IMG/VR virus record: IMGVR_UViG_3300049913_000012
Origin: an uncultured virus (IMG/VR IMGVR_UViG_3300049913_000012)
Taxonomy: Duplodnaviria; Heunggongvirae; Uroviricota; Caudoviricetes
DNA length: 64,000 nucleotides
Direction: 5' to 3' (one strand)
Under the pieces are notes generated by a model that saw nothing but the letters and a program-made list of their open reading frames with translations, ran no database searches and had not been told where the DNA came from. Position 1 is the first letter of the stretch. Each line of letters opens with the position of its first letter. This document shows positions 49,148-64,000 of this stretch, one piece after another. Both the position numbers and the translations under genes were made by a program.

Positions 49148-49680
49148 ATTGCCCAGGCTGCATCAGCAGGGGGATAGATATGCTGGTGAAACTTACTCCA
49201 TGTAGTCACTGTGAAGCCCTGTGCTTCAAGTTCTGGAGGCGTCCATACAGCCTCATGAGCCATAGCTGGATTGTCTTCAGTACCCTTTTGGTCACAGGGG
49301 CCAACTGGTAGCCAGATTAGCACTTTCTTCCTAGCGATCCTTTTAGCTTGACTGAGTAACTCAAGTCCTTCATCTTTGGTAACATGCTCAAGCATATCCA
49401 TCATGATGACTACATCATATGACTCAGTAGGCAAGCTAGGTAGATAGGTACGAGCATCCCTCACGTAAGCTTGAAGCTCCTTTGCAGCTATATTGCGCTG
49501 GTTCGTAATGAGATCACGAACACCTGGAGCAGCTATATCAAGAGCAACTAGTTTCTTGAAAGGTATCTTCCTCATCTGAGTGCTGAGTGGCGAGTTCATG
49601 TGACCACAGCCAACGTCAAGCACCTCTAGTTCTTCAATCTTCAATCCTGAAAACTTCTCAAGCAAATTTAGCGGTTCCAT
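49096..49680 (-). CDS. Class I SAM-dependent methyltransferase
   Basis: VLDVGCG; YDVVIMMDMLEH. Confidence 0.85.
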   Translation of the reverse strand: MEPLNLLEKFSGLKIEELEVLDVGCGHMNSPLSTQMRKIPFKKLVALDIAAPGVRDLITNQRNIAAKELQAYVRDARTYLPSLPTESYDVVIMMDMLEHVTKDEGLELLSQAKRIARKKVLIWLPVGPCDQKGTEDNPAMAHEAVWTPPELEAQGFTVTTWSKFHQHIYPPADAAWAIWKNPAKKKSKQSSLSA

Positions 49681-50279: not shown

Positions 50280-50924
50280 TTATTCTCCTATCATTTGCAC
50301 GACATGAAACATCTCTGCATAGTTTGCTTGGATAGCCAGCCCACGCATTTCAGCTACTATCTGTGCTGCCATTGGAGAGCATGGATGTGGAAACTGTCTT
50401 ACCCAAGATTTATAGGTTGAAATAGCCTGTACTTTCTTATAGAAAGTGTCGGTTATGTCAACGTAGAGTTTACCACCTGGAGTACTGTAATCAGGATAAG
50501 TGTACTCATACATAAGTATATTGGGAATATGGACATGAGCACCTAAGCGTAGAGCAGATAGACTTGCCTCGTGCGTAATCTTATGGTCTTTATGATGAGA
50601 TGGATAAGGAAGAAAGACATAGTTATATGGACGTTCATCCAGTATCCGATCAAGCTCAGTGACAATATCTATCATGGGGAGGGTATCAAGCCTTACTTCC
50701 TTGGTTGGGAACAGAGGTGTCACTCGACTGATACCAAGGATCGCTGATGCTCTTATACACTCATCATAGCGTACATCATCTTGCTTGCCTATTCCTATAG
50801 CTAGGACTACTAGGTGTATAAAAGCGCCTTTTTCAGACCATTTAGCAATCGTACCACCACATCCAAAGGACTCGTCATCTGCATGCGGAGCTATTACCAG
50901 AATATTCGTGTTGCTATCTACCAT
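50280..50924 (-). CDS. PIG-L/LmbE family deacetylase
   Basis: VIAPHADDE...GGTI; HHKDH. Confidence 0.9.
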   Translation of the reverse strand: MVDSNTNILVIAPHADDESFGCGGTIAKWSEKGAFIHLVVLAIGIGKQDDVRYDECIRASAILGISRVTPLFPTKEVRLDTLPMIDIVTELDRILDERPYNYVFLPYPSHHKDHKITHEASLSALRLGAHVHIPNILMYEYTYPDYSTPGGKLYVDITDTFYKKVQAISTYKSWVRQFPHPCSPMAAQIVAEMRGLAIQANYAEMFHVVQMIGE

Positions 50925-51718
50925 GCTGTGTAATTACCATCCTTTACATAGAATCTGAAGCGTATTCCATTTCTACGTAACTGGTTCTTTAGTATTTCTG
51001 TAAGTCGAGTAGCAGCACCTATAATTGAGGGATAGCCAGTATCAAAGATGGTGGTTGCACCATTCTCGATTATTATGATTCTCCCTCCTTCGACCATTGT
51101 GCGTGGAGGCGTATTGCCACCCTGAATCCTTGTTGCTTGGTACAGTATATCTGTAAGGATTTTCTGTATCTCTCCTGATGATAGCTTTCTGGGGTACTCG
51201 TTTTCCTTTAGTATCCTAACTGGTATTCCACCAGCAAGACAGCCCGAAGGCAAGTCTATATTCACCAGACTTCTAGCTGCGACCACTACATCGTTGCCAA
51301 TGGTTACACCTGGGTTTACCCAAGTACTAGGTAGCCATACATGATCGCCAATGTGAACTTCATCGAACTTGACAGGGAAGCCTCGCAGTATAGATTGATA
51401 TGCACCATGCGTGAAGATTTGGGTTTGCACTCCTACACCACACTCATGTCCAATAATGACTGATCGGGCAGTGTTGATGTGTGAGTCTACTCCCATGTGC
51501 AAGAAGTCACCAGCACACAATGTTGATTGAGGGTCGAAGCAGCTACCTCCTCCAATGTAGGCACGCTTATTCAGGAAGGCTTCCTTACCGATCTCAACAT
51601 ATCTACCTTCTATGACCACATTCTCGTTGACGATACTGCGATCTCCAAGGGAGCCTTTCTCTACGTTGATGACTGCTGTAGGGTGTATCTGACAATTCTC
51701 TCCAATGGTAAAACTCAT
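50918..51718 (-). CDS. Hexapeptide-repeat (LbH) sugar acetyltransferase
   Basis: IGENCQIHPTAVI; VHIGDHVW; VTIGNDVVVAARSLV; GGIPVR. Confidence 0.85.
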   Translation of the reverse strand: MSFTIGENCQIHPTAVINVEKGSLGDRSIVNENVVIEGRYVEIGKEAFLNKRAYIGGGSCFDPQSTLCAGDFLHMGVDSHINTARSVIIGHECGVGVQTQIFTHGAYQSILRGFPVKFDEVHIGDHVWLPSTWVNPGVTIGNDVVVAARSLVNIDLPSGCLAGGIPVRILKENEYPRKLSSGEIQKILTDILYQATRIQGGNTPPRTMVEGGRIIIIENGATTIFDTGYPSIIGAATRLTEILKNQLRRNGIRFRFYVKDGNYTAW

Positions 51719-52409
51719 GGGGCATTCCTCAATTTCTCTAGCCACTCTGGTGCAGCAGTGTAGGTAACAAAGGGTGGTAGGGACAATGGTTGTAACTCAA
51801 GTCTTCTTATCAGGTCTTGAGGGCTAGTAAAGCCTGATCCTGGTATCTGTGCATAGAGCATAGCTTTCTTCTTGAACCTTTTCTCTGCATAGTAGCTGAA
51901 ATGAATGATAGAAATACCAGACTCAAGAGGAATACTACTGATGTTTGCTGCAATTCCTGCTACATAGGTGTGGATCGGCTCAAGCCACCTTACTTGTAAT
52001 GTCTTTTTGAATAGACATAAATGACCAAAGCCATACTCGATAGGTAGACACTGGCGTGGCTCCTTCATTATATGATAGCAAGGAACGCTCCAGCCAACCT
52101 CGTCATGCTTAGATATAAACCTATTGAGACTTTCGATCATCTGGTCGCTAGGTAGTTCATCACTATCCCACTTGAGTATCCAGTCTCCATCATTGCAGTA
52201 CTCTAGCATCTTGTTTCTTGAGACAGACAGGTCTAGTATATTTTCATGGTTATAGTGGACGTAATCATGAGGACGTAGTGTAGCCTGGATTAGCTCTACG
52301 CTGCTATCTGTTGAGCCTTGGTCAACAAAGATAATCCTGTCTGCGAATAGCTGTAGAGCAGGGACAACCACAGGAAGGTAGATAGCATCGTTATGAACGA
52401 TCATATTTA
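51715..52409 (-). CDS. GT2-like glycosyltransferase (start approximate)
   Basis: IIFVDQGSTDSS; WILKWDSDE; IIHFSY. Confidence 0.8.
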
Positions 52410-52429
52410 TAACTAGCTTTGCCTTGTTC

Positions 52430-53029
52430 TTAGCCACCCTTTGCCTCCTGTTCTCGCATGCGAGACAGCAAACGTTGCCGATTTTCTTCATCCCATTTAT
52501 TGGACTCAGGGTATCTGCGTCTCGTAGCTCCCCATACATGCAAAATAGGTAAGGGGATTACTCTACCCTTTATACCCATGCGTGATAGTCTCCATGCCAG
52601 ATCAACATCTTCCCATGAGTTCTTATAGGCTATATCAAACCCACCCAGGAAGTTCCACACATCTCTGTCTATGACGATGCACCAGCCCTCGATGTACTCT
52701 ACACCTTCCTTGATAAGACCAACTGCACCGCCATAGGGATAGTCCCATGAGTCAAGTCGAGCAAAGATGTCACCCCTTACTGTGATGTCATTGTTCAGTA
52801 TCACTAGTTTCTTACAGGTAGCTAGTGCTGCACCCTTGTTGACTGCCTCGGCGTAGGGAACCATTTCATCAATGTTGACTTCACCCCTATTCTCGCCACC
52901 ATTGTCAACACGAATAAGCTCATAATCAATAAGGGTACTCTGGCCTAGTGATCTCCAGGCTGGTACAGTAAAGTGATCCCACTCGCTCTTGCCAGCGCTT
53001 ACCATCACTACGCTGTATTTAGCTGACAT
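52430..53029 (-). CDS. GT2 glycosyltransferase
   Basis: VDNG; AVNKGA; LNND; GGFD..Y...WEDVDL. Confidence 0.85.
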   Translation of the reverse strand: MSAKYSVVMVSAGKSEWDHFTVPAWRSLGQSTLIDYELIRVDNGGENRGEVNIDEMVPYAEAVNKGAALATCKKLVILNNDITVRGDIFARLDSWDYPYGGAVGLIKEGVEYIEGWCIVIDRDVWNFLGGFDIAYKNSWEDVDLAWRLSRMGIKGRVIPLPILHVWGATRRRYPESNKWDEENRQRLLSRMREQEAKGG

Positions 53030-53606
53030 TTGCTGCCCCTTGGATGCGCTTCATAATCTCCTCAGAATCGAACTCAGCATTATTAGTGATATTGTAGACC
53101 TTGGCTCCAATATCCTCGTTGCCTAAATGGAAGTCGATGGCACGTACATACTCATTACGCCTGGAGTTATAGATTTGTACAAGTTGTGCCTCTTCTGGAG
53201 TAGCAACACCAGCAATAACCTTATCAATGAGCGCCCAGATACGCTGGTTCATGATGATAAGCTCATCAATAAGCTGTCCTGTGGTCTTGACATCTATATC
53301 TCCAGCACGCACTACCTTCGGGCCAGGGATGTCTTCTGAGAAGACTGCCTCTCCCCAACGTCTCTGTATCTCAGCTAACTCTTCGTTGGCTCCAGCTAAA
53401 GCACCATTGAGTAGGGCGATCTCAAACCTCTGCCTAGCGATGATACTGTCCTTGTCTCCGCTTTGTATCTTCATACTTCCAAGATAGAAGACAACAAACT
53501 CTTCTAGGATGCTACGATACTCATCCTTTCGCTGCCTATGGCTGGTAAGATAGCTAGTAAGATGATCTAGTTCTTGTTCTATTTCGGGATTAGTCGGTAT
53601 TGTCAT
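53019..53606 (-). CDS. Helical protein in the glycosylation cluster
   Basis: C-terminal TTGQLIDEL.I.N..IW...N.RRN...AID pattern. Confidence 0.55.
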   Translation of the reverse strand: MTIPTNPEIEQELDHLTSYLTSHRQRKDEYRSILEEFVVFYLGSMKIQSGDKDSIIARQRFEIALLNGALAGANEELAEIQRRWGEAVFSEDIPGPKVVRAGDIDVKTTGQLIDELIIMNQRIWALIDKVIAGVATPEEAQLVQIYNSRRNEYVRAIDFHLGNEDIGAKVYNITNNAEFDSEEIMKRIQGAANVS

Positions 53607-53615
53607 TGCATTCTC

Positions 53616-54392
53616 CTATTCTGGATCACACCAAACTGGTTTGTGGCCTAGCATAAAGGCCATTCTCTCTGCATTGAAGCGTCCCATTGCCTCATCACTG
53701 ACTTGTTTCTTCCACGCAGTATAGGGGTCTTCACCGCCTGGGTCAATATGGTCAATTAGGATATGGGGGTAATGGACAGTCATAAATCCTGCTACTTGAG
53801 CACGAATAGAAGCAAGGGCATCGTCAAAGCCATAGAGCTCATCCATCTGGTAGAGGTAGCCTATCTTGTCGAGACATGCGCTGCTATATAGCTGGCATGT
53901 ACCCATAACATGGTGGACTCTTTCTACGACAAGCCATCTTTGCCCTGCATCATGCGGAAGCATTTTGAGTTCTGAGCGATACCAATCAGCAGGGTTCCAA
54001 GGTGTCTCTATACAATCAGTGCGCTTCAGTCCCACGATACCGACCTTAGGTTCACGTTCTACGCACTCTACAAGGATGTCTAGCCAATTCTCTTGATGAA
54101 TGACTACATCATTATCCATCTTGACCGCATGCTCACCCTCATGGCGTGTCACCCAGGCCTTGTTGATAGCTTTGGCTGTGCCAATGTTCTCAGATAGGGT
54201 GATGATCTCAAATGGCTGAGTATTCCACTCCCTTAGGATGGACTTGGTTTCTGGACATGAGCCATTGTCTACAATCACAAGTCTATGCTTGTGAAAGTCT
54301 ACTGTATTATAGAGACTAGTAAGTGTTCTTTGGGTAAGAGCGCTACGCTTGTTCTCTTCGGTATCCCATACTGCTATCGTTATTAGAGCCAT
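53616..54392 (-). CDS. GT2 glycosyltransferase
   Basis: IVDNGS; ENIGTAKAIN; KMDND; IGYL...YGFDD. Confidence 0.85.
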   Translation of the reverse strand: MALITIAVWDTEENKRSALTQRTLTSLYNTVDFHKHRLVIVDNGSCPETKSILREWNTQPFEIITLSENIGTAKAINKAWVTRHEGEHAVKMDNDVVIHQENWLDILVECVEREPKVGIVGLKRTDCIETPWNPADWYRSELKMLPHDAGQRWLVVERVHHVMGTCQLYSSACLDKIGYLYQMDELYGFDDALASIRAQVAGFMTVHYPHILIDHIDPGGEDPYTAWKKQVSDEAMGRFNAERMAFMLGHKPVWCDPE

Positions 54393-54401
54393 TTCCTCTC
54401 C

Positions 54402-54572
54402 TCACTCATTCTCGTGCCAGTCATTACGAGCGCCCTGCTGCCATTCCTGACGACCATGTTTCTCATCGTCTTTGTATGAAGCAAAGCACCAGCTAGCTAC
54501 AAGTATCCCTAGTATGCCTCCAATAACTAACCCCACAAAGCATCCTATACTGCCAATCAACCACCAGGGCAT
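54402..54572 (-). CDS. Small membrane protein
   Basis: AGGAGG RBS; MPWWLIGSIGCFVGLVIGGILGILVASW. Confidence 0.5.
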   Translation of the reverse strand: MPWWLIGSIGCFVGLVIGGILGILVASWCFASYKDDEKHGRQEWQQGARNDWHENE

Positions 54573-54573
54573 G

Positions 54574-55518
54574 TTACCTCCTATGTGGTACATTGTAGAT
54601 ATGAAGTAGCTTTAGTTCGTAGAGTTGGATTCCTTCCCATTCTCCATTATCACCAGAATAACAAGTAGCAATGTATTTATAAATGAGAGAATCACTATCA
54701 CTAAAGTACTTCCCATAAGGTTGGTAGGTACTACTTTTTATGGAATAGATATACATCTTTCCATTAGTAGTCACAAGAATTATATCCCCGACCTTGAGCT
54801 CAAGCCAGCCTGTTTCCCACATTCTATGCGCCCATATCGTACCTCGATATGCTGCTGCTCCATGCAGCGTGGCTGGTAGGAGCAGGGAACCACCAGGAGC
54901 GTTTACGCCAGCATAAAGGCTGTATGAGTAGCCATCCATATCTACTAGCCCCACAAGCTCACCTGGGTATTCATTTTGGTATGCTCCAAAAGCATCTGCT
55001 GGTACTGGAGGAAACGGAGTCTCGGTAGGGACAGGAGGTGTGGTTGAAGTAGGCGTTGGTACAGCGGTTGACGTACTAGTAGCAGTTGGAGTAGGTGTAC
55101 TCGGTGGTTGTGTGGCAGTACTAGTAGGTGTAGGCGAGGGATCAACCTCAGGTGTTGGTGTCGGTGATGGGTCTACTTCTGGAGTTGGCGTAGCCGTTGG
55201 CGTATTCGTGGGAATAGTCGTTGGACTAGCAGTTGGAGTGTCCGTAGGAGTACTCGTTGCTGTCTCCGTTGCTGTCGCTGTTGGTGTATCTGTAGGAATG
55301 TTTGTAGGCGTTTCAGTCGGCGTTGGAGTAGCAGTTGATGTCTCCGTTGGAGTATTTGTTGGTGTGTCAGTTGGAGTGGCACTTGGAACCTCCGTATTCG
55401 TTGGAGTAGGAGTCTCAGTAGGACAATTAGGATCAATCGGACTTGCTCTCGTAGTACCAGCAGCAATAAGGGCTAAAGCAATAAGAAGTACAACAGCAGC
55501 AATATATACAGTTTTCAT
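54574..55518 (-). CDS. Secreted Pro/Thr-repeat protein with C-terminal sortase-like domain
   Basis: Signal peptide; about 140-aa TPT linker; WAHR...LKVGDII.VT...Y.I...IATCY. Confidence 0.65.
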
Positions 55519-55544
55519 TCATTCTCCTCTCAATTTCATAAAGG

Positions 55545-55760
55545 TATAAAGATGCAAGGGTTGGCTCACACGCCTCCTTATACGCTAACTAGAGTATTCA
55601 AGCACTAGCCATCCTTTGTAGCCTTGCATCTTTGCAAGCCCTAGCAGTCCCTGACATTCGCAGGCATTTGTCCCATTCGTGAGTATGACGCTATAAAAGC
55701 ACATCAAGGCATACTCATGAGTAAAAGTGCATCCTACTAGAGCTTATCCACATTGCAAGA
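55545..55760 (-). ncRNA. Candidate structured RNA / leader
   Basis: Nested inverted repeats (AAAGATGCAAGG/CCTTGCATCTTT; GAGTATG/CATACTC) in a 240-nt intergenic gap. Confidence 0.35.
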
Positions 55761-56141
55761 CTACTTGGTCTTCGGGGTACGCTTGGCCTTTGGAACAGAC
55801 TCGGTAGTCTTTGCCACGTCTTCAGTTTTTGGCTGGAAGGGTGGCACGATTCCTAAATGAGCCCAAATTCCATCAGGAGTAGCTTTGGCATTTATCGCCT
55901 GATTGATGGTAGCACGTAGGTTATCGAAGTACTTGGTGCGAGCATGCAGTGTTAGTGGTGCTGGTGCTGCAAGAGCATCCCACTCTGCACGATCTTGCTT
56001 GGTGAAGTTATACTGTTTTGCCAATTCATCAATGGTCACTTTATCTTGCACATATTTCTGCACGACCATAAAGAACGGTTCTAGCGGTAGCCAGCGTTTC
56101 TGGTCTTTCTCTAACTTTAGAAACCTCTCTATCAATGCCAT
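55761..56141 (-). CDS. Hypothetical protein
   Basis: AAGGAG RBS; 126 aa. Confidence 0.65.
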   Translation of the reverse strand: MALIERFLKLEKDQKRWLPLEPFFMVVQKYVQDKVTIDELAKQYNFTKQDRAEWDALAAPAPLTLHARTKYFDNLRATINQAINAKATPDGIWAHLGIVPPFQPKTEDVAKTTESVPKAKRTPKTK

Positions 56142-56165
56142 AATATTCTCCTTATTTTGAGTATT

Positions 56166-56309
56166 CTAGAATAGGAATGCAGCAGCAAAAGAAGCAGCAC
56201 CCCACCATCCACTTACTTTGCCGATAGCTGCTATGATGAACAGCACAACCGCAACAATCAGCAGGACAGTACGTAGGTTGAACACAAACGATCTAGGATT
56301 TTCAGCCAC
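56166..56309 (-). CDS. 47-aa 2-TM protein directly after the endolysin (possible holin)
   Basis: AAGGAGG RBS, GTG start; LRTVLLIVAVVLFIIAAIG...WWGAASFAAAFLF; not in the ORF track. Confidence 0.55.
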   Translation of the reverse strand: MAENPRSFVFNLRTVLLIVAVVLFIIAAIGKVSGWWGAASFAAAFLF

Positions 56310-56323
56310 AATGCCTCCTTTCT

Positions 56324-57091
56324 TTATATAGTCCATCCATGAGCAATAGCTTGTAGCTTCAATCTGGCTACATCAGCTTCGAGGGCAGCTACACGCTGCT
56401 CAAGAGTAATCTGAGGTAGCAAACTACCCCACCATGTCTGGAGGTTGATTAGGGTATCGTTCCACTCGATGATGTCCATCGGGCGATTGGCACATCCAGG
56501 CAGGATATAACGATCAGCAGAGCACTGCCATCCTTTTAGGGGGCCAGGGCATCTCTTCTGAGGGTCTGGGTTCCATCCATATGTGACTAGTCTAGTATTC
56601 AGGTCAGCCCATGTTATCTCAATCCTTCCGTCAGGATATAGATAATTAGGATACCTAGCCCAACAATAATCTACATTGGTTGGCCAGTAAGATAGGTTGC
56701 CCAAGAACCACTGCCCTGTATAGAGGACATGAGTATAGCGATACCTGGATGTTATCAGGTAGTAGTTGGCTACTTCTCTGGCATAGTCTGCTGCTGGATA
56801 GTCCTTCTTCACCACCTCAATATCATCCATGACCTTAGTAACTTCCTCGGTAGGTATGGTATCAAGTAGGAACTCTGCGTTTACTTTTCCTGAAACCCAA
56901 GGATTATAAACGAAGTATGGTGCTCTCAGAAACGACTCGCACTGTTCCCACTCAGTAGTGAAGTTGGCGTCTGGATGGTGTCCACCATTCATGTCATTCA
57001 AACGGATGAAGACGAACTTTACACCAGCCTCCAGAATGATTGATTCGTTGATGTCTAATGATCCTTCCCAAACATCTATGCCTGTTATCAT
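56324..57091 (-). CDS. Endolysin, GH25 muramidase-like
   Basis: GIDVW...GVKFVFIR...DDIE...YTG.W...W.ARY...WQ. Confidence 0.8.
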   Translation of the reverse strand: MITGIDVWEGSLDINESIILEAGVKFVFIRLNDMNGGHHPDANFTTEWEQCESFLRAPYFVYNPWVSGKVNAEFLLDTIPTEEVTKVMDDIEVVKKDYPAADYAREVANYYLITSRYRYTHVLYTGQWFLGNLSYWPTNVDYCWARYPNYLYPDGRIEITWADLNTRLVTYGWNPDPQKRCPGPLKGWQCSADRYILPGCANRPMDIIEWNDTLINLQTWWGSLLPQITLEQRVAALEADVARLKLQAIAHGWTI

Positions 57092-57294
57092 GCTTGAGTC
57101 TCCTGTTTCTCCCCACAGAAGGGACAATAGGCTGCGGTGAGCCTCACTGGGCCTTCTCGCACATGACTATTGATCTTCTCAGTGGCAATGGCGATGCGAG
57201 TATCAAAGCCATTCTTGTTCCACATAACTGTGGGGGTTAGTCTGGTATTTTGCTTGGCTAACTCTAAATTCACTTTCTTATAGCAATCACACAT
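57088..57294 (-). CDS. Small Cys-containing phage protein
   Basis: MCDC...YCPFCG. Confidence 0.6.
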   Translation of the reverse strand: MCDCYKKVNLELAKQNTRLTPTVMWNKNGFDTRIAIATEKINSHVREGPVRLTAAYCPFCGEKQETQA

Positions 57295-57297
57295 ATA

Positions 57298-58386
57298 TCA
57301 CATCCTTGGTCGTTGATTAGCGACCTCTATGAATTTTCTAGGATTTGTCTTTAGAAAAAGAATCTGCGCCAGGATATGGTCGTACAACGGATAGTCAGAA
57401 TGAGGGGTAGTGCTATTGCTACCTACATTCAGGCAATATACATCATTTCCGCTATACACATTGTAGGTAGGAGGAGCCATGAAAGCTGGTTCGTTGTCAC
57501 AGGCAGCATCAATCCTGAACACACCTATCTTAGTCCAGACAGTAACAGTGCTGAATGACTTGAACTCATCAAGCTCTGAAGCGGAGAGACACGAGAGAAA
57601 TAGATTGAGCGCTTTTTCTTTGGATGCTATCTGCTCCTTTATTACTTTATCCATTCTCTCGTGCTGCTGCTCCATGACACGGAACGACTCTCGTTGACCA
57701 CCAGCTTCGCCTACCATGAAACCACAACTTCCTGCGGTAGCCATGCTACGGAGAGCATTTATTAGCTGCTCGTTGAGTTCATTGACCGATTCTCCAAATG
57801 CTTGACGATGCTCTCGCATTTCATCAGGCGTTATGTTGCGATTAGGAACAGGTTCAGTTACTGTTGACATCATTCTCTCTTGAGCAGGGCCACCCCATTG
57901 AGCTCTCCACATTGCGGAATTAGCTAGGTGAACAACTAGCTTACGTCCTGCTTCATAAGCTGGAATAGGATTAGGGTTGCCAAATTCACGGATGTCTGGA
58001 ACTTCCATACAGATAACTTCTGCTCGTTCAACATGGTAGCCCTGCCTTATTATGCCTAGGCAAGTTTCCCAGGCTTGATTTTTATCAGTAAAGACTTGAT
58101 GCTCATAGTCGTTTAGGAAAAGATCAACAAAGCGAGCTTCACGAGTAAAGAAAAACTCATGTAGTCCCTCCATAAAGCCCCTTCTAGAAATTATTGTTGC
58201 CATAGCTACATCCTCGTCCGTGATGTATGGTGCTCCAAAGATAGCCTCAGGGGTATGTTGTGCATACACAACTCTACAGTCGTGATTGCGTGCCCTTTTT
58301 CCCTTTATTATTGTAGTAATTATACCTAGCCAAGAGAAAAGCAAGCCAGATATGGCTACCAAAGGAGCAAAAACTTGAGGATCCAC
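57298..58386 (-). CDS. Hypothetical protein: N-terminal TM, C-terminal YCL...P..D..LAQ.L.L...F...AN domain
   Basis: 362-aa ORF coupled to the upstream GG-ending gene. Confidence 0.65.
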   Translation of the reverse strand: MDPQVFAPLVAISGLLFSWLGIITTIIKGKRARNHDCRVVYAQHTPEAIFGAPYITDEDVAMATIISRRGFMEGLHEFFFTREARFVDLFLNDYEHQVFTDKNQAWETCLGIIRQGYHVERAEVICMEVPDIREFGNPNPIPAYEAGRKLVVHLANSAMWRAQWGGPAQERMMSTVTEPVPNRNITPDEMREHRQAFGESVNELNEQLINALRSMATAGSCGFMVGEAGGQRESFRVMEQQHERMDKVIKEQIASKEKALNLFLSCLSASELDEFKSFSTVTVWTKIGVFRIDAACDNEPAFMAPPTYNVYSGNDVYCLNVGSNSTTPHSDYPLYDHILAQILFLKTNPRKFIEVANQRPRM

Positions 58387-58613
58387 TACCCTCCAGAGAC
58401 TTGAGGAACAGCAATTACCTGAACATGCTTTTGGAAGAGTTTATCTATCAGTGTAGTATCCTTAGTCTCAGGATCGACAGAGAATAGGGTAAAGCCAGCC
58501 TTACCTAATTCCTCGAACTTAGTCTGAGCTTTCTGAAACTCTGTCTCGATTGCAGGATCATATTGAAATGGAGTATCTCCACCAGTACCTAAAACTCTGA
58601 TCGTATTCTTCAT
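58386..58613 (-). CDS. Small protein ending in di-glycine
   Basis: GDT...YDP...F...G...VPQVSGG-stop; AAGGAG RBS. Confidence 0.65.
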   Translation of the reverse strand: MKNTIRVLGTGGDTPFQYDPAIETEFQKAQTKFEELGKAGFTLFSVDPETKDTTLIDKLFQKHVQVIAVPQVSGG

Positions 58614-58627
58614 CTTATATCTCCTTT

Positions 58628-58906
58628 CTATATCTGTAACCCATTCATTAGGGTTTTGATGTGCTTGAAGATGGAATTGATACGGATTGATTGTTCCTGT
58701 ATCGTTCCACCTATCTGAGTTACCTGTTGCTTGAGCTCTGATGTAGTTGGCGTATTGGGTGATACCGCAATAGCCGAGATCGGAGCAAGTCTTTTCTCTA
58801 ACTCGTCAACCAACGACATTAGCTCGCTAATGCAGCCTTCTAGATATGATAGCTGCTCAGGTATCTCTCTACCTCTTTCTTGTGCTACTCCACCACTAGA
58901 CATCAT
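58628..58906 (-). CDS. Coiled-coil hypothetical protein
   Basis: AAGGAG RBS; heptad pattern. Confidence 0.6.
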   Translation of the reverse strand: MMSSGGVAQERGREIPEQLSYLEGCISELMSLVDELEKRLAPISAIAVSPNTPTTSELKQQVTQIGGTIQEQSIRINSIFKHIKTLMNGLQI

Positions 58907-60042
58907 ACTATTTCTCCTTTCACCTTATTGTAAATTTCCTGATAGGTGCTCAGGATTTTATCTATATTCTTGTCTATATCCTGAGCCATAGCAAACTCTA
59001 GACCAGAGTCTACTTTGTCTTTTGCTTCCTGATAGTGATCCATGATTGAGTAGATGGCACTCTTCCAATCATAGGAGCTATTCTTGACCCTTGTACCATA
59101 AGCTGCTAGTTCTTCAGTAGGTGCAGCCTTTGTGCCAATCCAGGGAATGCCCATGAGGGTAAACTCTAAGGTCTTTATCCACGATCTACGATTATCGTAT
59201 ACGCCAGATAGCGGAATGAGTCCTAAGTCCCACTCTGCCATGACACTAGGCCACTTCTGAGGCTCGACCCAATCAATAGGGAAGACCTTGGTAGGGATGT
59301 TGATAGCTTCAGGAATACGTCTATCGCCACCAGCTACCCTGATAATAGCATTCTTGCGCTTGGCACATACATCATGTAGAGCGTCAATGAGGCCACTCTT
59401 AGTCCAGCTATCCATGTGTGTCCAGCTACCACCCCACCCAATAACAAACTTAGTGTCCCTACTATCATTTGTTCTTTGCTTTAGTCTCTTGAGAGGTAGA
59501 TACATCGAGGTAGGGATATAGTTTGGCATGAGAAATAAATTGTTGTTGAAGTCAGACCAGTCCTTTAGGATAATAGGAGATGGGCTGGCAACAGCATGCA
59601 CTAGTTTCATGCCCCACTCTAGTTGCTCTATAGGAGGGTTACTCATTTTTGCACTGCGAAGGTTGCCTTCCTTATCTTTGGCTTTGATTATGCCTTCATG
59701 CCAGAAAGGATAGGTTGCTATTGTCTTTGGCATGAGCTTATAGGCATCGTCTACATCTGCAACAACGATCTTGCCTAGAGCCATCAATTCTATGAACCGA
59801 GGAATAGCAGCAGCCAGGATAAGCCTTTCAACAACCACAATATCAGACCAGTCACAGTACTGCTTGGTGTTTCCATCACCATTGACAAAGGTATCGAAGG
59901 GCAGGGTAAGTGCTCTAGATGCACCACTTCCTGATCCACTGGTGTCTGCTAATAGATTGATCGCCAAGGCAGGGTTGAGGCAGCGCCATTGTGAAGTATT
60001 CCATTCTTTTTCATTGTCTGCATAGACAAATAAGATATTCAT
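58903..60042 (-). CDS. GT-B (GT4-like) glycosyltransferase
   Basis: DVDD; IGWGGSWTH..; DLGLIPL...N..RS.IK.LE. Confidence 0.85.
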   Translation of the reverse strand: MNILFVYADNEKEWNTSQWRCLNPALAINLLADTSGSGSGASRALTLPFDTFVNGDGNTKQYCDWSDIVVVERLILAAAIPRFIELMALGKIVVADVDDAYKLMPKTIATYPFWHEGIIKAKDKEGNLRSAKMSNPPIEQLEWGMKLVHAVASPSPIILKDWSDFNNNLFLMPNYIPTSMYLPLKRLKQRTNDSRDTKFVIGWGGSWTHMDSWTKSGLIDALHDVCAKRKNAIIRVAGGDRRIPEAINIPTKVFPIDWVEPQKWPSVMAEWDLGLIPLSGVYDNRRSWIKTLEFTLMGIPWIGTKAAPTEELAAYGTRVKNSSYDWKSAIYSIMDHYQEAKDKVDSGLEFAMAQDIDKNIDKILSTYQEIYNKVKGEIV

Positions 60043-61037
60043 TTGAGTACTCCTTCAATAGCTTCTTTCCATACCTTAGACATCTTGGTCATTTCTCGTC
60101 CTCTAGCAGCATCGTGTCCGTTTCTGGCTATTGTTTTAGCTTCATCAGGGTGGGTAAATAGGTACTCCAAAGCACCATACCATTCATCACTCTCGTGTCC
60201 TACTTCAAAGCCACCTCCAGGCCAGTTAGAATAGACAGGCATTTTGGAGCAGATGTAAGGGATCATCTTAGCACCAGCATCTACTAGTTTGATGTCTGAT
60301 TTAGCTTGGTTGAACTCATTATCTAGCAGAGGAGCCAGCATCACATCCCAAAGGGACAACATTGCGGGATAAACATCGTAGCTAACCATTGGCACAAATA
60401 GCTTCTGCTTCTCTGGGATCCTCTTGAGCATGTTGTAGATTTCTGGGTCGCCAGCAATACACACCATAGCCTGTGGGTACTCTTTGATAAAACGCATGAG
60501 TGGATGCACACACATCTTGAAGTCCTCACGGTGAGTAATCGTACCACCCCATCCTATGATGAAGCGATCTTTGTAGAGTGAGCGCTTGACTAGCCAGTGG
60601 AAATTGTCAGCCGACCAGCCATTAGGAATAACCTTGATGTTCTTGTTGATAGGCAGGAGCCTGTCTCTCAGGATACTGGTGGCTGTAGTTATTAAGCTAG
60701 CTGCATAGATGCAGTTGTCCAGCTTCATTAGGTAGTAAGGATCGCCCTTGCCTACAAATTTGTAGCCTGGGTGTTTCTCTGGGATAGCATGGAAGTCATC
60801 GTCCATATCCACAATTACAGGGATACCTAAGCGCCTATAGGCTGTGATTAGCGAGTCGTGGTGCGGTCTACTAAAGACGATGGCGTCATAGCCCATTAGA
60901 GGTACAAGAGTGCCTTCACGATATTCCAGTGCAGTGAAATCTACCTCGAAGCCTAGCTTATTGAGGTGAAATCCTGGTAACTGGCAACGTACAGCATCGC
61001 TAACTGTACCTTCTCCTACAAAGAGAATCTTGGTCAT
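60039..61037 (-). CDS. GT-B (GT4-like) glycosyltransferase, paralogue of the downstream gene
   Basis: DMDDD; IGWGGTITHRED; APLLDNEFNQAKSDIK. Confidence 0.85.
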   Translation of the reverse strand: MTKILFVGEGTVSDAVRCQLPGFHLNKLGFEVDFTALEYREGTLVPLMGYDAIVFSRPHHDSLITAYRRLGIPVIVDMDDDFHAIPEKHPGYKFVGKGDPYYLMKLDNCIYAASLITTATSILRDRLLPINKNIKVIPNGWSADNFHWLVKRSLYKDRFIIGWGGTITHREDFKMCVHPLMRFIKEYPQAMVCIAGDPEIYNMLKRIPEKQKLFVPMVSYDVYPAMLSLWDVMLAPLLDNEFNQAKSDIKLVDAGAKMIPYICSKMPVYSNWPGGGFEVGHESDEWYGALEYLFTHPDEAKTIARNGHDAARGREMTKMSKVWKEAIEGVLK

Positions 61038-61282
61038 TCAGGCACTTTCCTGTACTTAGTGAATGCTTCTCCACTTTCCCACTCTGTCATAAGCTGGTTG
61101 AAAACACCCATAGTTACATGGGCTGAGCCACCACTATGACCATAGGAAGAGAAGGCTTCCGACATTTTCTCCACTACTGTGCCGAGTTCACCATCATAGT
61201 CGGAGTCGTCATCATACATTCCTAACTCCTTTAGGCGTCTGATGAAGTACTCGTGTCTATTTTCATGCGGATTGCTATCCAT
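61034..61282 (-). CDS. Phage hypothetical protein (GHSGGSA motif)
   Basis: AAGGAG RBS, ATG 61282; EAFSSYGHSGGSA. Confidence 0.65.
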   Translation of the reverse strand: MDSNPHENRHEYFIRRLKELGMYDDDSDYDGELGTVVEKMSEAFSSYGHSGGSAHVTMGVFNQLMTEWESGEAFTKYRKVPE

Positions 61283-61309
61283 TGTATTCTCCTTTGTTAG
61301 TTTAGTTAT

Positions 61310-61449
61310 GCTATGTCGGGGGGAGTGGACTTTCACCACTCTGCCAGCCTAGAGTCTATCTCTTATGAGCAACTGCCACCCGTAGCCAGTTTCCCTCGGA
61401 TAAGGTTTGTCGCTTCCAGGCCAGTCACATCCGACCTCCCCGACATAGT
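61310..61449 (-). ncRNA. tRNA-like structured RNA of about 140 nt
   Basis: Terminal stem CTATGTCGGGG/CCCCGACATAG; T-arm-like GAGTGG-TGAAAGT-CCACTC adjacent to the 3' strand. Confidence 0.5.
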
Positions 61450-61476
61450 ACGACTTTGTAAGGTTCAGCATTCCAG

Positions 61477-61561
61477 CGGAGAGAGCAGGACTTGAACCTG
61501 CATACCTTTTGAGGGGTGAGCTGGTTAGCAACCAGTCGCAATACCATTCTGCCATCTCTCC
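61477..61561 (-). tRNA. tRNA-Ser(GCT)
   Basis: Acceptor GGAGAGA/TCTCTCC+G; anticodon CTGG-TTGCTAA-CCAG; long variable arm; T-arm GCAGG-TTCAAGT-CCTGC; no encoded CCA. Confidence 0.85.
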
Positions 61562-61564
61562 TAA

Positions 61565-61636
61565 TACCTCCAGCGGGACTCGAACCCACATCCTGAGTTT
61601 AGAAAACTCTCGCTCTATCCCTTGAGCTATAGAGGT
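61565..61636 (-). tRNA. tRNA-Arg(TCT)
   Basis: Acceptor ACCTCTA/TGGAGGT; D-arm GCTC..GAGC; anticodon GAGT-TTTCTAA-ACTC; T-arm GTGGG-TTCGAGT-CCCGC. Confidence 0.85.
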
Positions 61637-61637
61637 A

Positions 61638-62184
61638 ATAGACTTTACTTCGCAACACATCACATTGCCTGACATCACTCCACTGAACAAAACTGCACTC
61701 GATACCATAGATATTACTTTACTCTACTGAGCATAGCACCACTCGACTACACAACACAAAACTAAACAGGGCTACACATCGCATAACCTTATTCCATAGA
61801 CCTTACTTTACTCAACTTCGCCAGACATCACACTGCCCAACCTTACTATACTCCACAAGACAATACCTCGTACCATAGACCTGACTGTACATCACACCAC
61901 TGTACCCGACCATGCTCCACCCAACATTACCGCATACCATAGGCTTTACTTTACTCCACCTGACTCCACTATACATTACTAAACCTGGCTTAACTGGGCC
62001 GCATTCCATAGACTGAGCCTTACTCCGCAAAGCCTCACGTCACCAAACAAAACCAAGCTCCGCACTACCTGATACCATAGACCTTACTTTACTGCGCTAG
62101 ACATCACTGCACTAGACCAAACTAAACCGAGCCTTACCAAATTCCATAAGCTTTACTTGACCTTGCATTGCCATACCGCACCCA
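61638..62184 (-). repeat. Pentamer-coded guide-like array: [CTATGGWAY + (NN-DGY) x 11-16] x 7 plus a 7-pentamer leading partial unit
   Basis: Parsed by hand: 96 pentamers, 95 ending in GY; full units of 69,69,69,64,79,89,69 nt in transcription order. Confidence 0.92.
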
Positions 62185-62190
62185 TCAGCA

Positions 62191-62505
62191 CTAGGCCTTG
62201 AGCCTCGGAAGTTTCTTAGCATCCAAAACTTTCACTAATGGTACATCGGGCAAACTCAGTTTGATATATTGCTCAAGTTGAGCCTTGTCTGTAGCTAACT
62301 CACGAGCCATGTTGAAATATACTGCTTCCTGAGCACGTTCAGCTTGCTTTAGGCGTGACCATGTGGATAACACCGATGATGCCAGACGAGCAGTGTCGAT
62401 GTCTGTATCCATCAACTCATCGCCTGGACTTAAGAATACCTTGCGTAGAGCCGATACTGCTGGTTCTACAAGGACTTCGAGTTTATCGCTGTCTTTCATA
62501 ATCAT
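62191..62505 (-). CDS. 104-aa helical accessory protein between the RAMP gene and the array
   Basis: AAGGAGG RBS; ATGA overlap with the upstream gene. Confidence 0.75.
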   Translation of the reverse strand: MIMKDSDKLEVLVEPAVSALRKVFLSPGDELMDTDIDTARLASSVLSTWSRLKQAERAQEAVYFNMARELATDKAQLEQYIKLSLPDVPLVKVLDAKKLPRLKA

Positions 62506-63113
62506 CCTCCTTTGCTATTCTTGGTGTCGTGCCAGTCGATTACAATGAACCGACCATGTTCAGGACGCCATGATCCAATACCAACCAAGATACCAGCTTC
62601 TTCAAGAGCAATACGTACTTGCTCTGGACTTCTGCGTGGATCAAGAACATTCAGAGTAAATGATGCAACCCATCCAGTCCTAAAGGCTGGTCGATAGATC
62701 ATACACGCTCCACCAGTTTTGGGAGGGCGTTTGCCTGGATGTTCGTGCATATAATCAAATGGCAATTCCCTTTGTGATGGTATTTCTTTTATGTAATCAG
62801 GTGTTGCGGGAGTGATATAGATCAGCCCCTCTACAAACACTGTGGCGATTAGATAAGGAGCAATATTCTTGCGTCCTTCCTTGAGATTGCCTGCCCTAGC
62901 ACCCGCAGCCATGACTTGCTTGAACATCCAGCTAGGAATATGAGCCTTGCCATTCTCATCAACAGGACATTTCTGGATAGCATCTTCACGCCACACTGAG
63001 TCTGGAATCTTGCCTCCACCTATACCACCCTGAAGAGCTAATAATTCTTTAGGGGTCATACGATTGAACAGTAAATCTGCTGTTCCTTGCAACTTACCTG
63101 TTATTTGATACAT
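62502..63113 (-). CDS. Stand-alone Cas7/RAMP-superfamily-like protein (Vipr-like)
   Basis: N-terminal strand ITGKLQGTADLL, HIPSWMFKQVM, YRPAF..W..SFTL and Gly-rich loop AGILVGIGSWRPEHGRF. Confidence 0.78.
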   Translation of the reverse strand: MYQITGKLQGTADLLFNRMTPKELLALQGGIGGGKIPDSVWREDAIQKCPVDENGKAHIPSWMFKQVMAAGARAGNLKEGRKNIAPYLIATVFVEGLIYITPATPDYIKEIPSQRELPFDYMHEHPGKRPPKTGGACMIYRPAFRTGWVASFTLNVLDPRRSPEQVRIALEEAGILVGIGSWRPEHGRFIVIDWHDTKNSKGG

Positions 63114-63124
63114 ATTTCACCTCT

Positions 63125-63430
63125 TTACCTTTCTTTTACTTCTGCCATTTGTGGATTGTCATACAGGATCATCATGACCCCATAAGCTATAGCATCAACT
63201 AAACTCTCACTGATCTTATCTATCCCAGCGTGAGTTAGAATGCCATGAATAGTCTCATGCCAGATTGTCTGCATCTCAGCTTGATAGGGCAGAGAGTCAT
63301 CAATGGCTATTTCACACTCGCCATATTTGATATGCCCATCTAGCCTCCGACCATCAGGGTGTCTCAATTCGTGTTCTCTAATTACCTGAAATATAATCCC
63401 GCCAATCTTTATCTTATCTACTCTTGTCAT
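63125..63430 (-). CDS. HExxH metallopeptidase-like phage protein
   Basis: KIKIGG..F.V...LDG.I.Y....IAID...QTIWHETIHGI. Confidence 0.65.
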   Translation of the reverse strand: MTRVDKIKIGGIIFQVIREHELRHPDGRRLDGHIKYGECEIAIDDSLPYQAEMQTIWHETIHGILTHAGIDKISESLVDAIAYGVMMILYDNPQMAEVKER

Positions 63431-63499
63431 GCTGCCTCCCTTCTTTGATCTTACGAACAATCTCATCAACTACCCACGCAAAGAAAATCACAAGTGCCA

Positions 63500-63964
63500 T
63501 TACACCAAGGAAGTCCATAGCCACCTCGTTTTCTCATCAGCTATGGTGATGACATCTTTGATCGCATAAAGCCACTCATAGATTGAGGCTGCGGTGTGCC
63601 ATTCTGTAATATAAGAAAGGCACTTTCTTGCTCCCGCTTCTCCATGTTGGAGATCAATATGGCAACGACCAGGATGGCAGATAACAACATTGCAAGGTAC
63701 ATATATCTGCATCTGCCACTCGAAGGGCGCTCCATCCACTTCACCTCTGGTAATGAGCCATTCATGTAAGTCTCCTTCCTTGAGATACTCACCACAATTG
63801 GGGCATTGTGTTGCCCAGGTCTGATAGTGCTTCTCTCCCATGCGTACCATCTTGTTTCGCTGGTAGAAGACCTCTGCTTTCAACTGCCTTCTTGCTATCC
63901 CTAAGAAATCGCTTCGCTCTCTTGCTAATACTGAAAACTTGGTAATTGTATTCGAGGAAGTCAA
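63500..63964 (-). CDS. HNH-like Zn-finger endonuclease (start uncertain)
   Basis: CPNCG...LHE...CNVVICH..RCH. Confidence 0.55.
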   Translation of the reverse strand: MTSSNTITKFSVLARERSDFLGIARRQLKAEVFYQRNKMVRMGEKHYQTWATQCPNCGEYLKEGDLHEWLITRGEVDGAPFEWQMQIYVPCNVVICHPGRCHIDLQHGEAGARKCLSYITEWHTAASIYEWLYAIKDVITIADEKTRWLWTSLV

Positions 63965-64000
63965 GGATGCAGGAACATTGATATATGGTAAGGTCGTAGC

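What the first reader, a model, noticed from the sequence alone, without database searches (positions are those of the whole stretch)
61638..63113. Cas7/RAMP-like gene plus a pentamer-periodic RNA array: a non-CRISPR RNA-guided system (VIPR-like)
Seen: on the minus strand a 203-aa protein with RAMP/Cas7-like hallmarks (N-terminal strand, IPxxxFK helix, YRPxF, C-terminal G-rich loop GIGSWRPEHGRF) is followed by a 104-aa gene and then about 550 nt of strictly 5-nt-periodic sequence. The array parses as a constant junction CTATGGWAY followed by 11-16 pentamers NN-DGY (95 of 96 end in GY), repeated 7 times after a 7-pentamer partial unit. The NN dinucleotides differ between units, so each unit carries distinct information interleaved with a fixed scaffold. 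No cas1/cas2 or palindromic CRISPR repeat is present in the window. Knowledge: Cas7 RAMPs polymerise on guide RNAs with a fixed nucleotide step. I recall phage RAMP + GGY/NN repeat 'VIPR' systems being reported recently but cannot verify this here; in this array the fixed triplet is relaxed to AGY/TGY/GGY. Inference: each unit is processed into a guide bound by one RAMP subunit per pentamer.
Basis: partly seen in the sequence, partly recalled or inferred. Interest (0 to 1): 0.97.

Follow-up and report, generated by a model that had tools for sequence, protein, structure and literature searches.

The report
Phage VIPR guide-RNA system, compact array
An uncultured freshwater-sediment phage carries a genuine member of the VIPR family, the CRISPR-like viral RNA-guided DNA silencers first described in 2026, so the kind is already known, though this copy has tightly packed guides and a loosened fixed letter.

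Summary
On the minus strand, a 203-aa gene and a 104-aa gene are followed by 543 nt in which 95 of 96 pentamers read NNNGY. They form eight head-to-tail units joined by YTATGGWAY.

The 203-aa protein is a Vipr. A profile of it and 27 relatives hits PDB 36pp "SUSP1 Vipr protein" at E 5.8e-17 over nearly its full length. Its model resembles Cas7/Csm3. Same-strand pentamer runs lie beside the gene in 40 of 49 distinct related loci.

This is therefore a VIPR system (bioRxiv 10.64898/2026.04.26.720920), not a new kind. This scan has noted such systems before on other DNA.

Local peculiarities:
- The first scaffold letter is A/G/T instead of G. A WGT/NN-type variant is already in print.
- The two residues that read that G in SUSP1 differ here (N17, S181), while the G2 and Y readers are kept.
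- There is no long structured tail.
- The last unit abuts tRNA-Arg.

No target, RNA evidence or processing enzyme was found. I did not run collection-wide target searches.

The parts
62502..63113 (-). vipr: 203-aa single-domain RAMP (Cas7-like) protein
   Evidence: phmmer finds PDB 36pp_D 'SUSP1 Vipr protein' at E 2e-7. The profile of A1 finds it at E 5.8e-17, covering positions 5-178 of 185 against residues 5-188 of 202. The AF2 model has pLDDT 85. Top Foldseek hits are type VII Cas7, Csm3 and Cas7-11, from E 1.5e-6. It matches PHROG 4652 of unknown function and no Pfam family.
62191..62505 (-). vap-like accessory gene. The ORF is 104 aa. The start is more likely the ATG at 62499, judging from the AGGAGG spacing and the N-termini of homologues. 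Its start overlaps the vipr stop codon.
   Evidence: tblastn finds a homologue next to vipr in 23 locus rows, which are 21 of 49 distinct loci and all lie within the L001-L031 clade. The AF2 model has pLDDT 88 and is all-helical with four helices. It has no Pfam match, no specific fold match, and no match to the Felixounavirus vap1 region of L051 at E <= 1e-3.
62150..62184 (-). vrRNA unit 0: 7 strict pentamers, or up to 10 if 62185-62199 is read through one imperfect pentamer
62072..62149 (-). Junction TTATGGAAT (62141-62149), unit 1 with 12 pentamers (62081-62140), and the next junction (62072-62080)
61934..62071 (-). Unit 2 (62012-62071, 12 pentamers), junction (62003-62011), unit 3 (61943-62002, 12 pentamers), junction (61934-61942)
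61791..61933 (-). Unit 4 (61879-61933, 11 pentamers), junction (61870-61878), unit 5 (61800-61869, 14 pentamers), junction (61791-61799)
61638..61790 (-). Unit 6 (61711-61790, 15 pentamers plus the exception AATAT), junction (61702-61710), unit 7 (61642-61701, 12 pentamers), and a terminal CTAT (61638-61641)
61564..61637 (-). tRNA-Arg(TCT), starting directly after the terminal CTAT of the array. It is probably co-transcribed, so RNase P would define the 3' end of the last unit (inference).
   Evidence: ARAGORN; Rfam tRNA at 60.3 bits. None of 34 related loci scanned has a tRNA, so the adjacency is particular to this phage.
61476..61561 (-). tRNA-Ser(GCT), second tRNA of the same-strand cluster. 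It is context, not a system part.

Best explanation
This is a phage-borne VIPR (Viral Interference Programmable Repeat) system with three parts: vipr (62502-63113), a clade-specific vap-like helper gene (62191-62505), and eight vrRNA units (62184-61638), all on the minus strand.

Most likely mechanism:
- The three parts, probably together with the two tRNAs, are transcribed as one RNA. This is inferred from the shared strand, the overlapping or abutting genes, and the absence of a convincing terminator.
- The precursor is cut in or near each 9-nt junction into RNAs of about 64-89 nt (inferred). The last unit ends in CTAT exactly where tRNA-Arg begins. RNase P cleavage there would give the 3' end that a cut at CTAT|GG would give to the other units.
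- One Vipr protomer binds each pentamer and holds G and Y of the D-G-Y scaffold through R141, W182 and R183. This follows from homology to the SUSP1 contacts R138, W178 and R179.
- The 11-16 NN dinucleotides pair with double-stranded DNA, skipping every third target base. That gives a 32-47 bp footprint, which silences transcription of a competing phage, satellite or prophage. This behaviour is shown only for SUSP1-type systems; the target here is unknown.
- The first scaffold letter is relaxed from G to A, G or T. The two residues that read G1 in SUSP1 (H17, D177) are N17 and S181 here, which I read as a permissive change.
For: - Homology to a solved Vipr: E 2e-7 with the single sequence and 5.8e-17 with the profile, covering nearly the full length.
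- Cas7/Csm3-like predicted fold, pLDDT 85.
- 95 of 96 pentamers are NNNGY. Units hold 11-16 repeats, within the published 9-16 range (paper Results read).
- 40 of 49 distinct related loci have at least one same-strand run of 6 or more such pentamers within 1.5 kb of the gene. Density is 0.93 runs/kb near the gene against 0.018 runs/kb further away, and 0 of 49 shuffled flanks have a run.
- Phage context: terminase, portal and major head genes.
- A conserved small partner gene in 21 of 49 distinct loci.
- No match of 80% or more to the window's own DNA. The best 1-nt-skip matches are 17/24 and no better than at other skip lengths. The paper likewise reports no self-targeting in its systems.
- Contact residues in the alignments, compared with the paper section read: R141, W182 and R183 are kept, while N17 and S181 are changed. 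This matches G2 at 95/96, Y at 96/96 and G1 at only 29/96.
- Across 33 loci with 10 or more pentamers, the share of G at position 3 is 0.45-1.0 with D at this G-loop site (12 loci), 0.21-0.95 with S (13 loci) and 0-0.21 with A (7 loci). D against non-D gives Mann-Whitney p 1e-4.
- Variants with a degenerate first letter (YNNNG; WGT/NN) are described in print.
Against: - No RNA evidence. No listed run that holds the locus is on record as RNA.
- No target was found. Only 0.6 Mb of fetched DNA (both strands) was scanned, and hits at 1-nt skip (3) were no more frequent than at skip 0 (2) or skip 2 (6).
- There is no conserved hairpin or pseudoknot tail of the kind seen in SUSP1 vrRNAs. The seven junction contexts fold differently, so how the units are separated is unknown.
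- The residue-letter link is not phylogenetically independent. The tree shows only 3 changes of D/non-D, at most 3 independent pairs (1 on well-supported branches), and the sign test has no power.
- The nearest relatives carry the same N17 and S181 but keep mostly G at that letter: L009 0.95, L012 0.76, L010 0.66. These two residues therefore cannot be the whole cause.
- The vap-like protein shows no recognisable DNA-binding fold.
- I could not assign the VIPR type (I-VII), because the figures and data files of the paper are not readable here.
Confidence: 0.85

Rival explanations
1. It is a VIPR relative with an expanded code. In this lineage the third letter (A/G/T) is no longer scaffold but is read. 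Each pentamer would then specify three target bases, contiguous triplets, or would bias the 'skipped' base.
For: Position 3 is almost as variable as the NN letters (A40/G29/T26), yet C is excluded at 1 of 96, against 14-15 of 96 at the NN positions. This points to selection rather than drift. Both G1-reading residues of SUSP1 are replaced. In the guide part of the units, the third letter depends weakly on the preceding letter (mutual information 0.187 against 0.082 in shuffles, p 0.0085, n = 80).
Against: No target is known, so the idea is untested. The dependence could equally reflect avoidance of AAA or GGG runs. In SUSP1 the thumb flips all three scaffold bases away from the target. The thumb arginine and the G-loop tryptophan are kept here. 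Exclusion of C fits a protein pocket as well as it fits a code.
Confidence: 0.08
2. It is a decaying or inactive VIPR locus. The loosened first letter, the lost tail and the unusual G-loop histidine would be signs of relaxed selection.
For: The nearest relatives keep mostly GGY and have 25-45 nt tails or spacers between units. H186 replaces a Y/F that is present in 45 of 46 aligned locus proteins. There is a 15-aa low-confidence insert before the thumb.
Against: G2 and Y are kept in 95/96 and 96/96 pentamers, and C is excluded at position 3. All eight units stay within the working length range. Both ORFs are intact and translationally coupled. In four other runs the covering contigs show no difference within the array. 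Arrays with a degenerate first letter recur in other clades and in print.
Confidence: 0.06
3. It is not an RNA-guide array at all, but a chance or coding repeat, or a DNA-level repeat such as protein-binding iterons.
For: ORFs of 72 and 119 aa can be drawn across the array and the tRNAs.
Against: The period is 5 nt, not 3: the self-match is 0.471 at lag 5 and 0.225 at lag 3. The array travels with a Vipr homologue in 40 of 49 distinct loci, always on the gene's strand. The 119-aa ORF runs through two tRNA genes.
Confidence: 0.01

Closest known systems
Type II VIPR of Escherichia phage SUSP1 and Felixounavirus relatives (bioRxiv 10.64898/2026.04.26.720920; structures in 10.64898/2026.04.26.720927; PDB 36pp)
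   Same: Both have a small Vipr protein (202 aa there, 203 aa here; profile E 5.8e-17). The gene order is vipr, then a small accessory gene, then a downstream vrRNA array on the same strand. The repeats are pentamers with a fixed G-Y and variable NN, 11-18 per RNA in the Felixounavirus locus L051. Both are phage-borne. The residues that hold G2 and Y (R, W, R) are conserved.
   Different: Identity to the Felixounavirus proteins is about 29%. In L051 each vrRNA stands alone, with a tail or spacer of about 70 nt between successive pentamer runs; the paper describes a conserved tail of about 40 nt with a pseudoknot. Here the units are head-to-tail with only 9 nt between them and no conserved hairpin. 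G1 is 42 of 58 in L051 and 29 of 96 here. The equivalents of H17 and D177 are N17 and S181. The accessory gene is unrelated at E <= 1e-3.
Non-canonical VIPR arrays: 'YNNNG' repeats and 'staggered' arrays (10.64898/2026.04.26.720920, Methods and legend of fig. S18) and 'WGT/NN' or 'TGH/NN' motifs (10.64898/2026.10.21.760802, section 2.3)
   Same: One position of the fixed trinucleotide is degenerate, the arrays lack long tails, and a Vipr-like fold lies nearby. These are described in the text passages read.
   Different: I could see only text, not the figures or locus lists. Whether this clade is among those shown, and whether its 9-nt junction equals the 'staggered' 1-nt-overlap layout, cannot be told. 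Here the letter is A, G or T, not only W.
Class 1 CRISPR-Cas backbone (Cas7/Csm3 filaments on crRNA)
   Same: The fold is RAMP-like (Foldseek E 1.5e-6 to 1e-4, TM 0.5-0.6). One subunit binds per fixed step of the guide, with thumb-driven base flipping; the latter comes from the paper.
   Different: PADLOC finds no cas1, cas2, Cas10, Cas8, Cas5 or Cas6 in 68 ORFs. There are no 25-40 nt direct repeats with spacers. The step is 5 nt with 2 letters read, rather than 6 nt with 5 read. The system lies on a phage.

Membership tests
VIPR system | Vipr protein homologous to an experimentally characterised Vipr | tested here: met
   PDB 36pp_D 'SUSP1 Vipr protein': phmmer E 2e-7; profile E 5.8e-17 over 5-188 of 202 residues.
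VIPR system | Minimal single-RRM RAMP fold with a glycine-rich loop and a thumb | tested here: met
   The AF2 model has pLDDT 85 and pTM 0.80. The top 50 Foldseek rows are Cas7, Csm3, Cmr and Cas7-11 chains. The G-loop GIGSWRPEHGRF and the thumb motif YRPAF align to the SUSP1 G-loop and thumb. The domain boundaries themselves were not inspected in 3D.
VIPR system | Residues that hold G2 and Y3 of the scaffold (SUSP1 R138, W178, R179) | tested here: met
   R141, W182 and R183 are aligned to them. The contact list comes from the paper section read.
VIPR system | Residues that read G1 of the scaffold (SUSP1 H17, D177) | tested here: not met
   N17 and S181 stand at the aligned positions. This matches the loss of a fixed G1 in the array (29 of 96). 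It marks a variant and does not exclude membership.
VIPR system | vrRNA made of tandem pentamers, a fixed trinucleotide alternating with variable NN, 9-16 repeats | tested here: met
   Units have 11-16 pentamers; G at position 4 in 95/96 and Y at position 5 in 96/96; the NN letters are variable. The first scaffold letter is D rather than G, which fits the published YNNNG and WGT/NN variants.
VIPR system | The array travels with the gene in relatives | tested here: met
   40 of 49 distinct loci have a same-strand run within 1.5 kb. Of the 9 without one, at least L011, L021 and L028 are short contigs cut close to the gene.
VIPR system | Adjacent vap accessory gene (vap1-6 in the paper) | tested here: inconclusive
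   A conserved small helical partner is present in 21 of 49 distinct loci. No vap1-6 sequences are available to me for comparison. The partner is not similar to the Felixounavirus vap1 region, and no DNA-binding fold was recognised.
VIPR system | Conserved structured 3' tail on each vrRNA (feature of type II) | tested here: not met
   Only a 9-nt junction is present. It is preceded by a semi-constant AAAGT AAGGT in 5 of 7 units (AAAGT AAAGC in unit 3, AAAGT AATAT in unit 6), and the junction contexts share no common hairpin. The paper says other array layouts exist.
VIPR system | Mainly viral or proviral location | tested here: met
   Terminase large subunit, portal and major head protein lie in the same window. 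The 8 viral contigs relatives come from IMG/VR contigs.
VIPR system | vrRNAs are expressed and co-purify with Vipr | not testable with these tools
   No run that holds the locus is on record as RNA. This needs small-RNA sequencing and a pull-down.
VIPR system | Natural DNA targets matching the NN letters with a 1-nt skip | tested here: inconclusive
   I scanned only the window and 49 fetched loci. The best matches were about 70% and no better than at other skip lengths. Collection-wide scans were not run.
CRISPR-Cas | cas1/cas2 adaptation genes and an array of 25-40 nt direct repeats with spacers | tested here: not met
   PADLOC gives no Cas hit in 68 ORFs. Tandem Repeats Finder reports nothing in 61000-63000. 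The repeat unit is 5 nt.

The most novel reading that the evidence does not exclude
In this lineage the Vipr pocket for the first scaffold base has been remodelled (N17, S181, H186, and a 15-aa insert before the thumb). The third letter of each pentamer (A, G or T, never C) may therefore have become an information letter, giving a 3-of-5 code. The array may also be a tail-less polycistron whose units are released by host tRNA-processing or other RNases at CTAT|GG, with RNase P at the abutting tRNA-Arg making the last cut.
Probability: 0.1. Interest if true: 0.6.

Novelty: new member of a known kind. Interest (0 to 1): 0.3.

Why it matters
The finding adds a well-resolved, eight-guide VIPR locus from an uncultured freshwater-sediment phage to a family that has been known only since 2026.

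It offers a natural experiment on how the scaffold letters are read. Within about 60% protein identity, close relatives differ from mostly GGY to A/G/T-G-Y, and from long spacers to 9-nt junctions. A profile search finds 5,329 cluster representatives at E <= 1e-3, against 664-667 systems classified in the paper, so most of the family's diversity is unclassified.

If the third letter proved to be read, the code would be richer than published. Otherwise this is a routine new member.

Tried and rejected
- **Closer relatives.** blastn of 61400-63500 against 50,697 phage records gave no match. The window's own protein in viral contigs gave no relative, and the family alignment in genome contigs gave none. 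No whole genome is held for this window.
- **Expression.** No listed holder of the locus is on record as RNA. All four runs laid were DNA contigs, with no difference listed within the array, so they say nothing about guide turnover.
- **Targets.** The window and the fetched loci were scanned with NN patterns built inside scripts. There was no hit at 80% or more in the window and no enrichment at 1-nt skip. Collection-wide scans of IMG/VR, metagenomes and genomes with derived NN-x patterns were not run, because they would need typed, altered sequence.
- **vap function.** Pfam, Foldseek PDB (best E 2.1), VIA wide (best Z 6.9, generic helical hairpins) and the protein atlas (best score 0.75, unnamed cluster) gave nothing specific.
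- **Vipr-Vap complex prediction.** It never ran.
- **Type I-VII assignment.** The main text and the supplement PDF hold no readable tree, logos or accession lists. Cluster look-up gave no accession numbers.
- **Junction structure.** No shared hairpin. No Rfam family in 61200-62400 other than the two tRNAs. No sigma-70-like promoter in 60900-64000, and only a weak terminator-like site inside the array at 61788-61770.
- **tRNA adjacency as a clade feature.** 0 of 34 related loci have a tRNA.
- **Phylogenetic test of residue against letter.** Too few independent changes.
Full report
**What is there.** On the minus strand, a 203-aa ORF (62502-63113) is followed by a 104-aa ORF (62191-62505). The second ORF's start overlaps the first ORF's stop codon. 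Then comes a 543-nt stretch (62184-61642) with a strict 5-nt period.

Parsed from the sequence, the stretch contains 96 pentamers:
- Position 4 is G in 95, and position 5 is T (74) or C (22) in all 96.
- Positions 1 and 2 use all four bases.
- Position 3 is A40, G29, T26 and C1.

The pentamers fall into a leading run of 7 and then seven units of 12, 12, 12, 11, 14, 16 and 12. Each of the seven is introduced by a 9-nt junction: TTATGGAAT once and CTATGGWAY six times. The junction shifts the 5-nt phase by four. Units mostly end in AAAGT AAGGT or a close variant.

The signal is far beyond chance. The self-match at lag 5 is 0.471, against 0.281 +/- 0.018 in 1000 shuffles, and the best 546-nt tiles of the whole window all lie here. 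No other run of 7 or more such pentamers exists in the 64 kb. Contigs assembled from four other public DNA runs cover the array and show no difference within it.

The array ends in CTAT (61641-61638), directly followed by tRNA-Arg(TCT) at 61637-61564 and tRNA-Ser(GCT) at 61561-61476.

**What the protein is.** Pfam finds nothing, and PHROGs gives only an unnamed family. Against PDB sequences, the single protein hits chain 36pp_D, deposited as "SUSP1 Vipr protein", at E 2e-7. A profile of the protein and 27 relatives hits the same chain at E 5.8e-17, covering profile positions 5-178 of 185 and chain residues 5-188 of 202.

The AlphaFold model built on that alignment has pLDDT 85 and pTM 0.80. 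Its Foldseek matches are Cas7 of type VII, Csm3, Cmr and Cas7-11 chains, from E 1.5e-6. That fold library stops on 8 April 2026 and returned no Vipr chain among its listed matches.

tblastn against GenBank phages finds 119 records, mostly Felixounavirus phages of Escherichia, Salmonella and Shigella, at about 29% identity. A profile search of 1.84 billion cluster representatives returns 5,329 proteins at E <= 1e-3 and 1,563 at E <= 1e-10.

**What is known.** VIPR systems were reported in 2026.
- *10.64898/2026.04.26.720920.* I read the abstract, all of Results, the Discussion, three Methods sections and figure legends. I also term-searched the supplement PDF of PMC13142463. The figures are not visible to me. 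A Vipr RAMP and a vap gene sit beside vrRNAs made of 9-16 YNNGG repeats followed by a conserved tail. The NN letters pair with double-stranded DNA while every third target base is skipped, and binding represses transcription. Natural targets are satellites, prophages and other VIPR loci. Seven types exist, with alternative NNNGG, YNNNG and NNNNG repeats, "staggered" arrays and ribozyme-spaced arrays.
- *10.64898/2026.04.26.720927.* I read the abstract and two Results sections. There is one protomer per repeat. G1 is read by H17 and D177, G2 by R138 and W178, and Y3 by a pocket that includes R179.
- *10.64898/2026.10.15.759431.* I read the abstract and one Methods section. It shows phage-satellite competition.
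- *10.64898/2026.10.21.760802.* I read passages only. It reports 21 clusters with non-canonical motifs, including WGT/NN and TGH/NN.

**Relatives and their arrays.** I fetched 8 loci from IMG/VR and 42 from metagenome contigs. Three of these are the same contigs twice. I added two GenBank phage loci, giving 49 distinct loci.
- 40 of the 49 have at least one run of 6 or more NNNGY pentamers on the gene's strand within 1.5 kb.
- There are 96 such runs in 103 kb near the gene, against 2 runs in 110 kb further away, and none in any of the 49 shuffled flanks.
- The 9 loci without a run include contigs that end close to the gene.
- Arrays lie upstream or downstream of vipr, depending on the subclade.
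- The 104-aa gene has homologues next to vipr in 21 of the 49 distinct loci, all within the closer clade.
- That protein is predicted to be all-helical (pLDDT 88) and has no informative family or fold match. It is not similar to the Felixounavirus vap1 region.

**How this copy differs.**
- *Nearest relatives (52-62% identity: L009, L010, L012).* They share the vipr-vap-array order. Their pentamers are mostly GGY, and tails or spacers of about 23-45 nt separate the units.
- *Felixounavirus locus L051.* Tails or spacers of about 70 nt separate successive pentamer runs.
- *This window.* Only 9 nt separate the units, and the seven junction contexts share no hairpin. The array must therefore be cut from a longer transcript. 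I found no terminator between the genes, the array and the tRNAs, apart from a weak motif inside the array, and no sigma-70-like promoter.
- *The last unit.* It stops with CTAT exactly at the 5' end of tRNA-Arg, so RNase P would leave a ...CTAT 3' end. If the other junctions are cut at CTAT|GG, all units would share that end. This is inference only. None of 34 related loci has a tRNA, so the adjacency is not a clade feature.

**The relaxed letter.** The residues aligned to SUSP1 R138, W178 and R179 are R141, W182 and R183. Those aligned to H17 and D177 are N17 and S181. This parallels the array, where G2 and Y are fixed and G1 is not.

Across the 33 loci with at least 10 pentamers (counts):

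| Residue at the D177 site | Loci | Share of G at position 3 |
|---|---|---|
| D | 12 | 0.45-1.0 |
| S | 13 | 0.21-0.95 |
| A | 7 | 0-0.21 |
| G | 1 | 0.33 |

D against non-D gives Mann-Whitney p about 1e-4.

Three results count against reading too much into this:
- The tree shows only three changes of D/non-D, and the independent-pairs test has no power.
- The closest relatives carry the same N17 and S181 yet keep 66-95% G.
- Two loci with D have only 45-46% G.

The window's lineage has two further peculiarities near the RNA site. H186 stands where 45 of 46 aligned locus proteins have Y or F. A 15-residue, low-confidence insert precedes the thumb and is shared only with a 96%-identical relative.

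C is almost absent at position 3 (1 of 96, against 14-15 of 96 at the NN positions). In the guide part of the units, the third letter depends weakly on the preceding letter (p 0.0085). Both observations are compatible with a selective pocket or with avoidance of homopolymer runs. Neither shows that the letter is read.

**Targets.** With NN patterns built inside scripts, no unit matches the window itself above about 70% at any skip length. This is consistent with the absence of self-targeting reported in the paper. An all-against-all scan of 75 guides over 0.6 Mb found 3 hits of 85% or more at 1-nt skip, against 2 at skip 0 and 6 at skip 2, which is chance level. Collection-wide scans were not run, so the biological target and the host remain unknown. 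The runs that hold the locus are labelled freshwater sediment metagenomes.

**Verdict.** The system is a member of a family already in print, and its degenerate first letter has published counterparts. This scan has also noted VIPR loci before on other DNA, including compact arrays, GY+NNN units and a case where a residue tracks the letter. I did not test those notes.

What is particular here:
- the very compact, tail-less eight-unit array;
- the A/G/T first scaffold letter in a lineage whose nearest kin keep G;
- the abutting tRNA.

Expression, processing, the target, the role of the helper gene and the type assignment all remain open.

Noticed in passing
window 61034-61339 (-): A 101-aa ORF just downstream of the tRNAs matches Pfam PF25185 Tad3 (type I Thoeris inhibitor) at E 1.8e-9, 37.9 bits against a cut-off of 27. 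A likely anti-defence gene therefore sits next to the VIPR locus.
   Followed up: no
window 61310-61448 (-): A non-coding stretch of about 138 nt between tRNA-Ser and the Tad3-like gene folds into a multi-branch structure closed by an 11-bp stem. MFE is -56.7 kcal/mol, but the z-score is only -1.72. No Rfam family matches it.
   Followed up: partly
window 62751-62795 (-), Vipr residues about 107-121: A 15-residue insert before the thumb looks like a local duplication of the neighbouring PDYI..HE segment. It is shared only with a 96%-identical relative and has low model confidence.
   Followed up: partly
window 62556-62558 (-), Vipr residue 186: The G-loop motif reads RPEHGRF. H stands where 45 of 46 aligned locus proteins have Y or F.
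   Followed up: partly
window 50280-61037 (-) and 35026-36468 (+): There is a run of predicted glycosyltransferase genes (PHROG hits at 51715-52539, 53616-54392, 58903-60042, 60039-61037 and 35026-36468). This is unusually many for one phage and may reflect DNA or surface glycan modification.
   Followed up: no
window 13986-24632 (+): A 3,548-aa ORF in the structural module has no PHROG or PADLOC match. ORFs of 1,373, 1,290 and 1,670 aa in the same module also have no match.
   Followed up: no
window 35026-36468 (+), 49096-49680 (-), 739-1224 (-): PADLOC hits to mad2 (E 7.5e-12 and 1.8e-8) and to candidate family PDC-M42C (E 8.7e-12). Their meaning in a phage genome is unclear.
   Followed up: no
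loci L003, L004, L006, L023, L024, L025, L027: Relatives with alanine at the G-loop site aligned to SUSP1 D177 have arrays whose third letter is rarely G (0-21%). In L003, L004, L006, L023 and L025 it is mostly A; in L024 and L027 T or C are commoner. This is a possible protein-residue to RNA-letter rule, but too few independent lineages are available to test it.
   Followed up: partly
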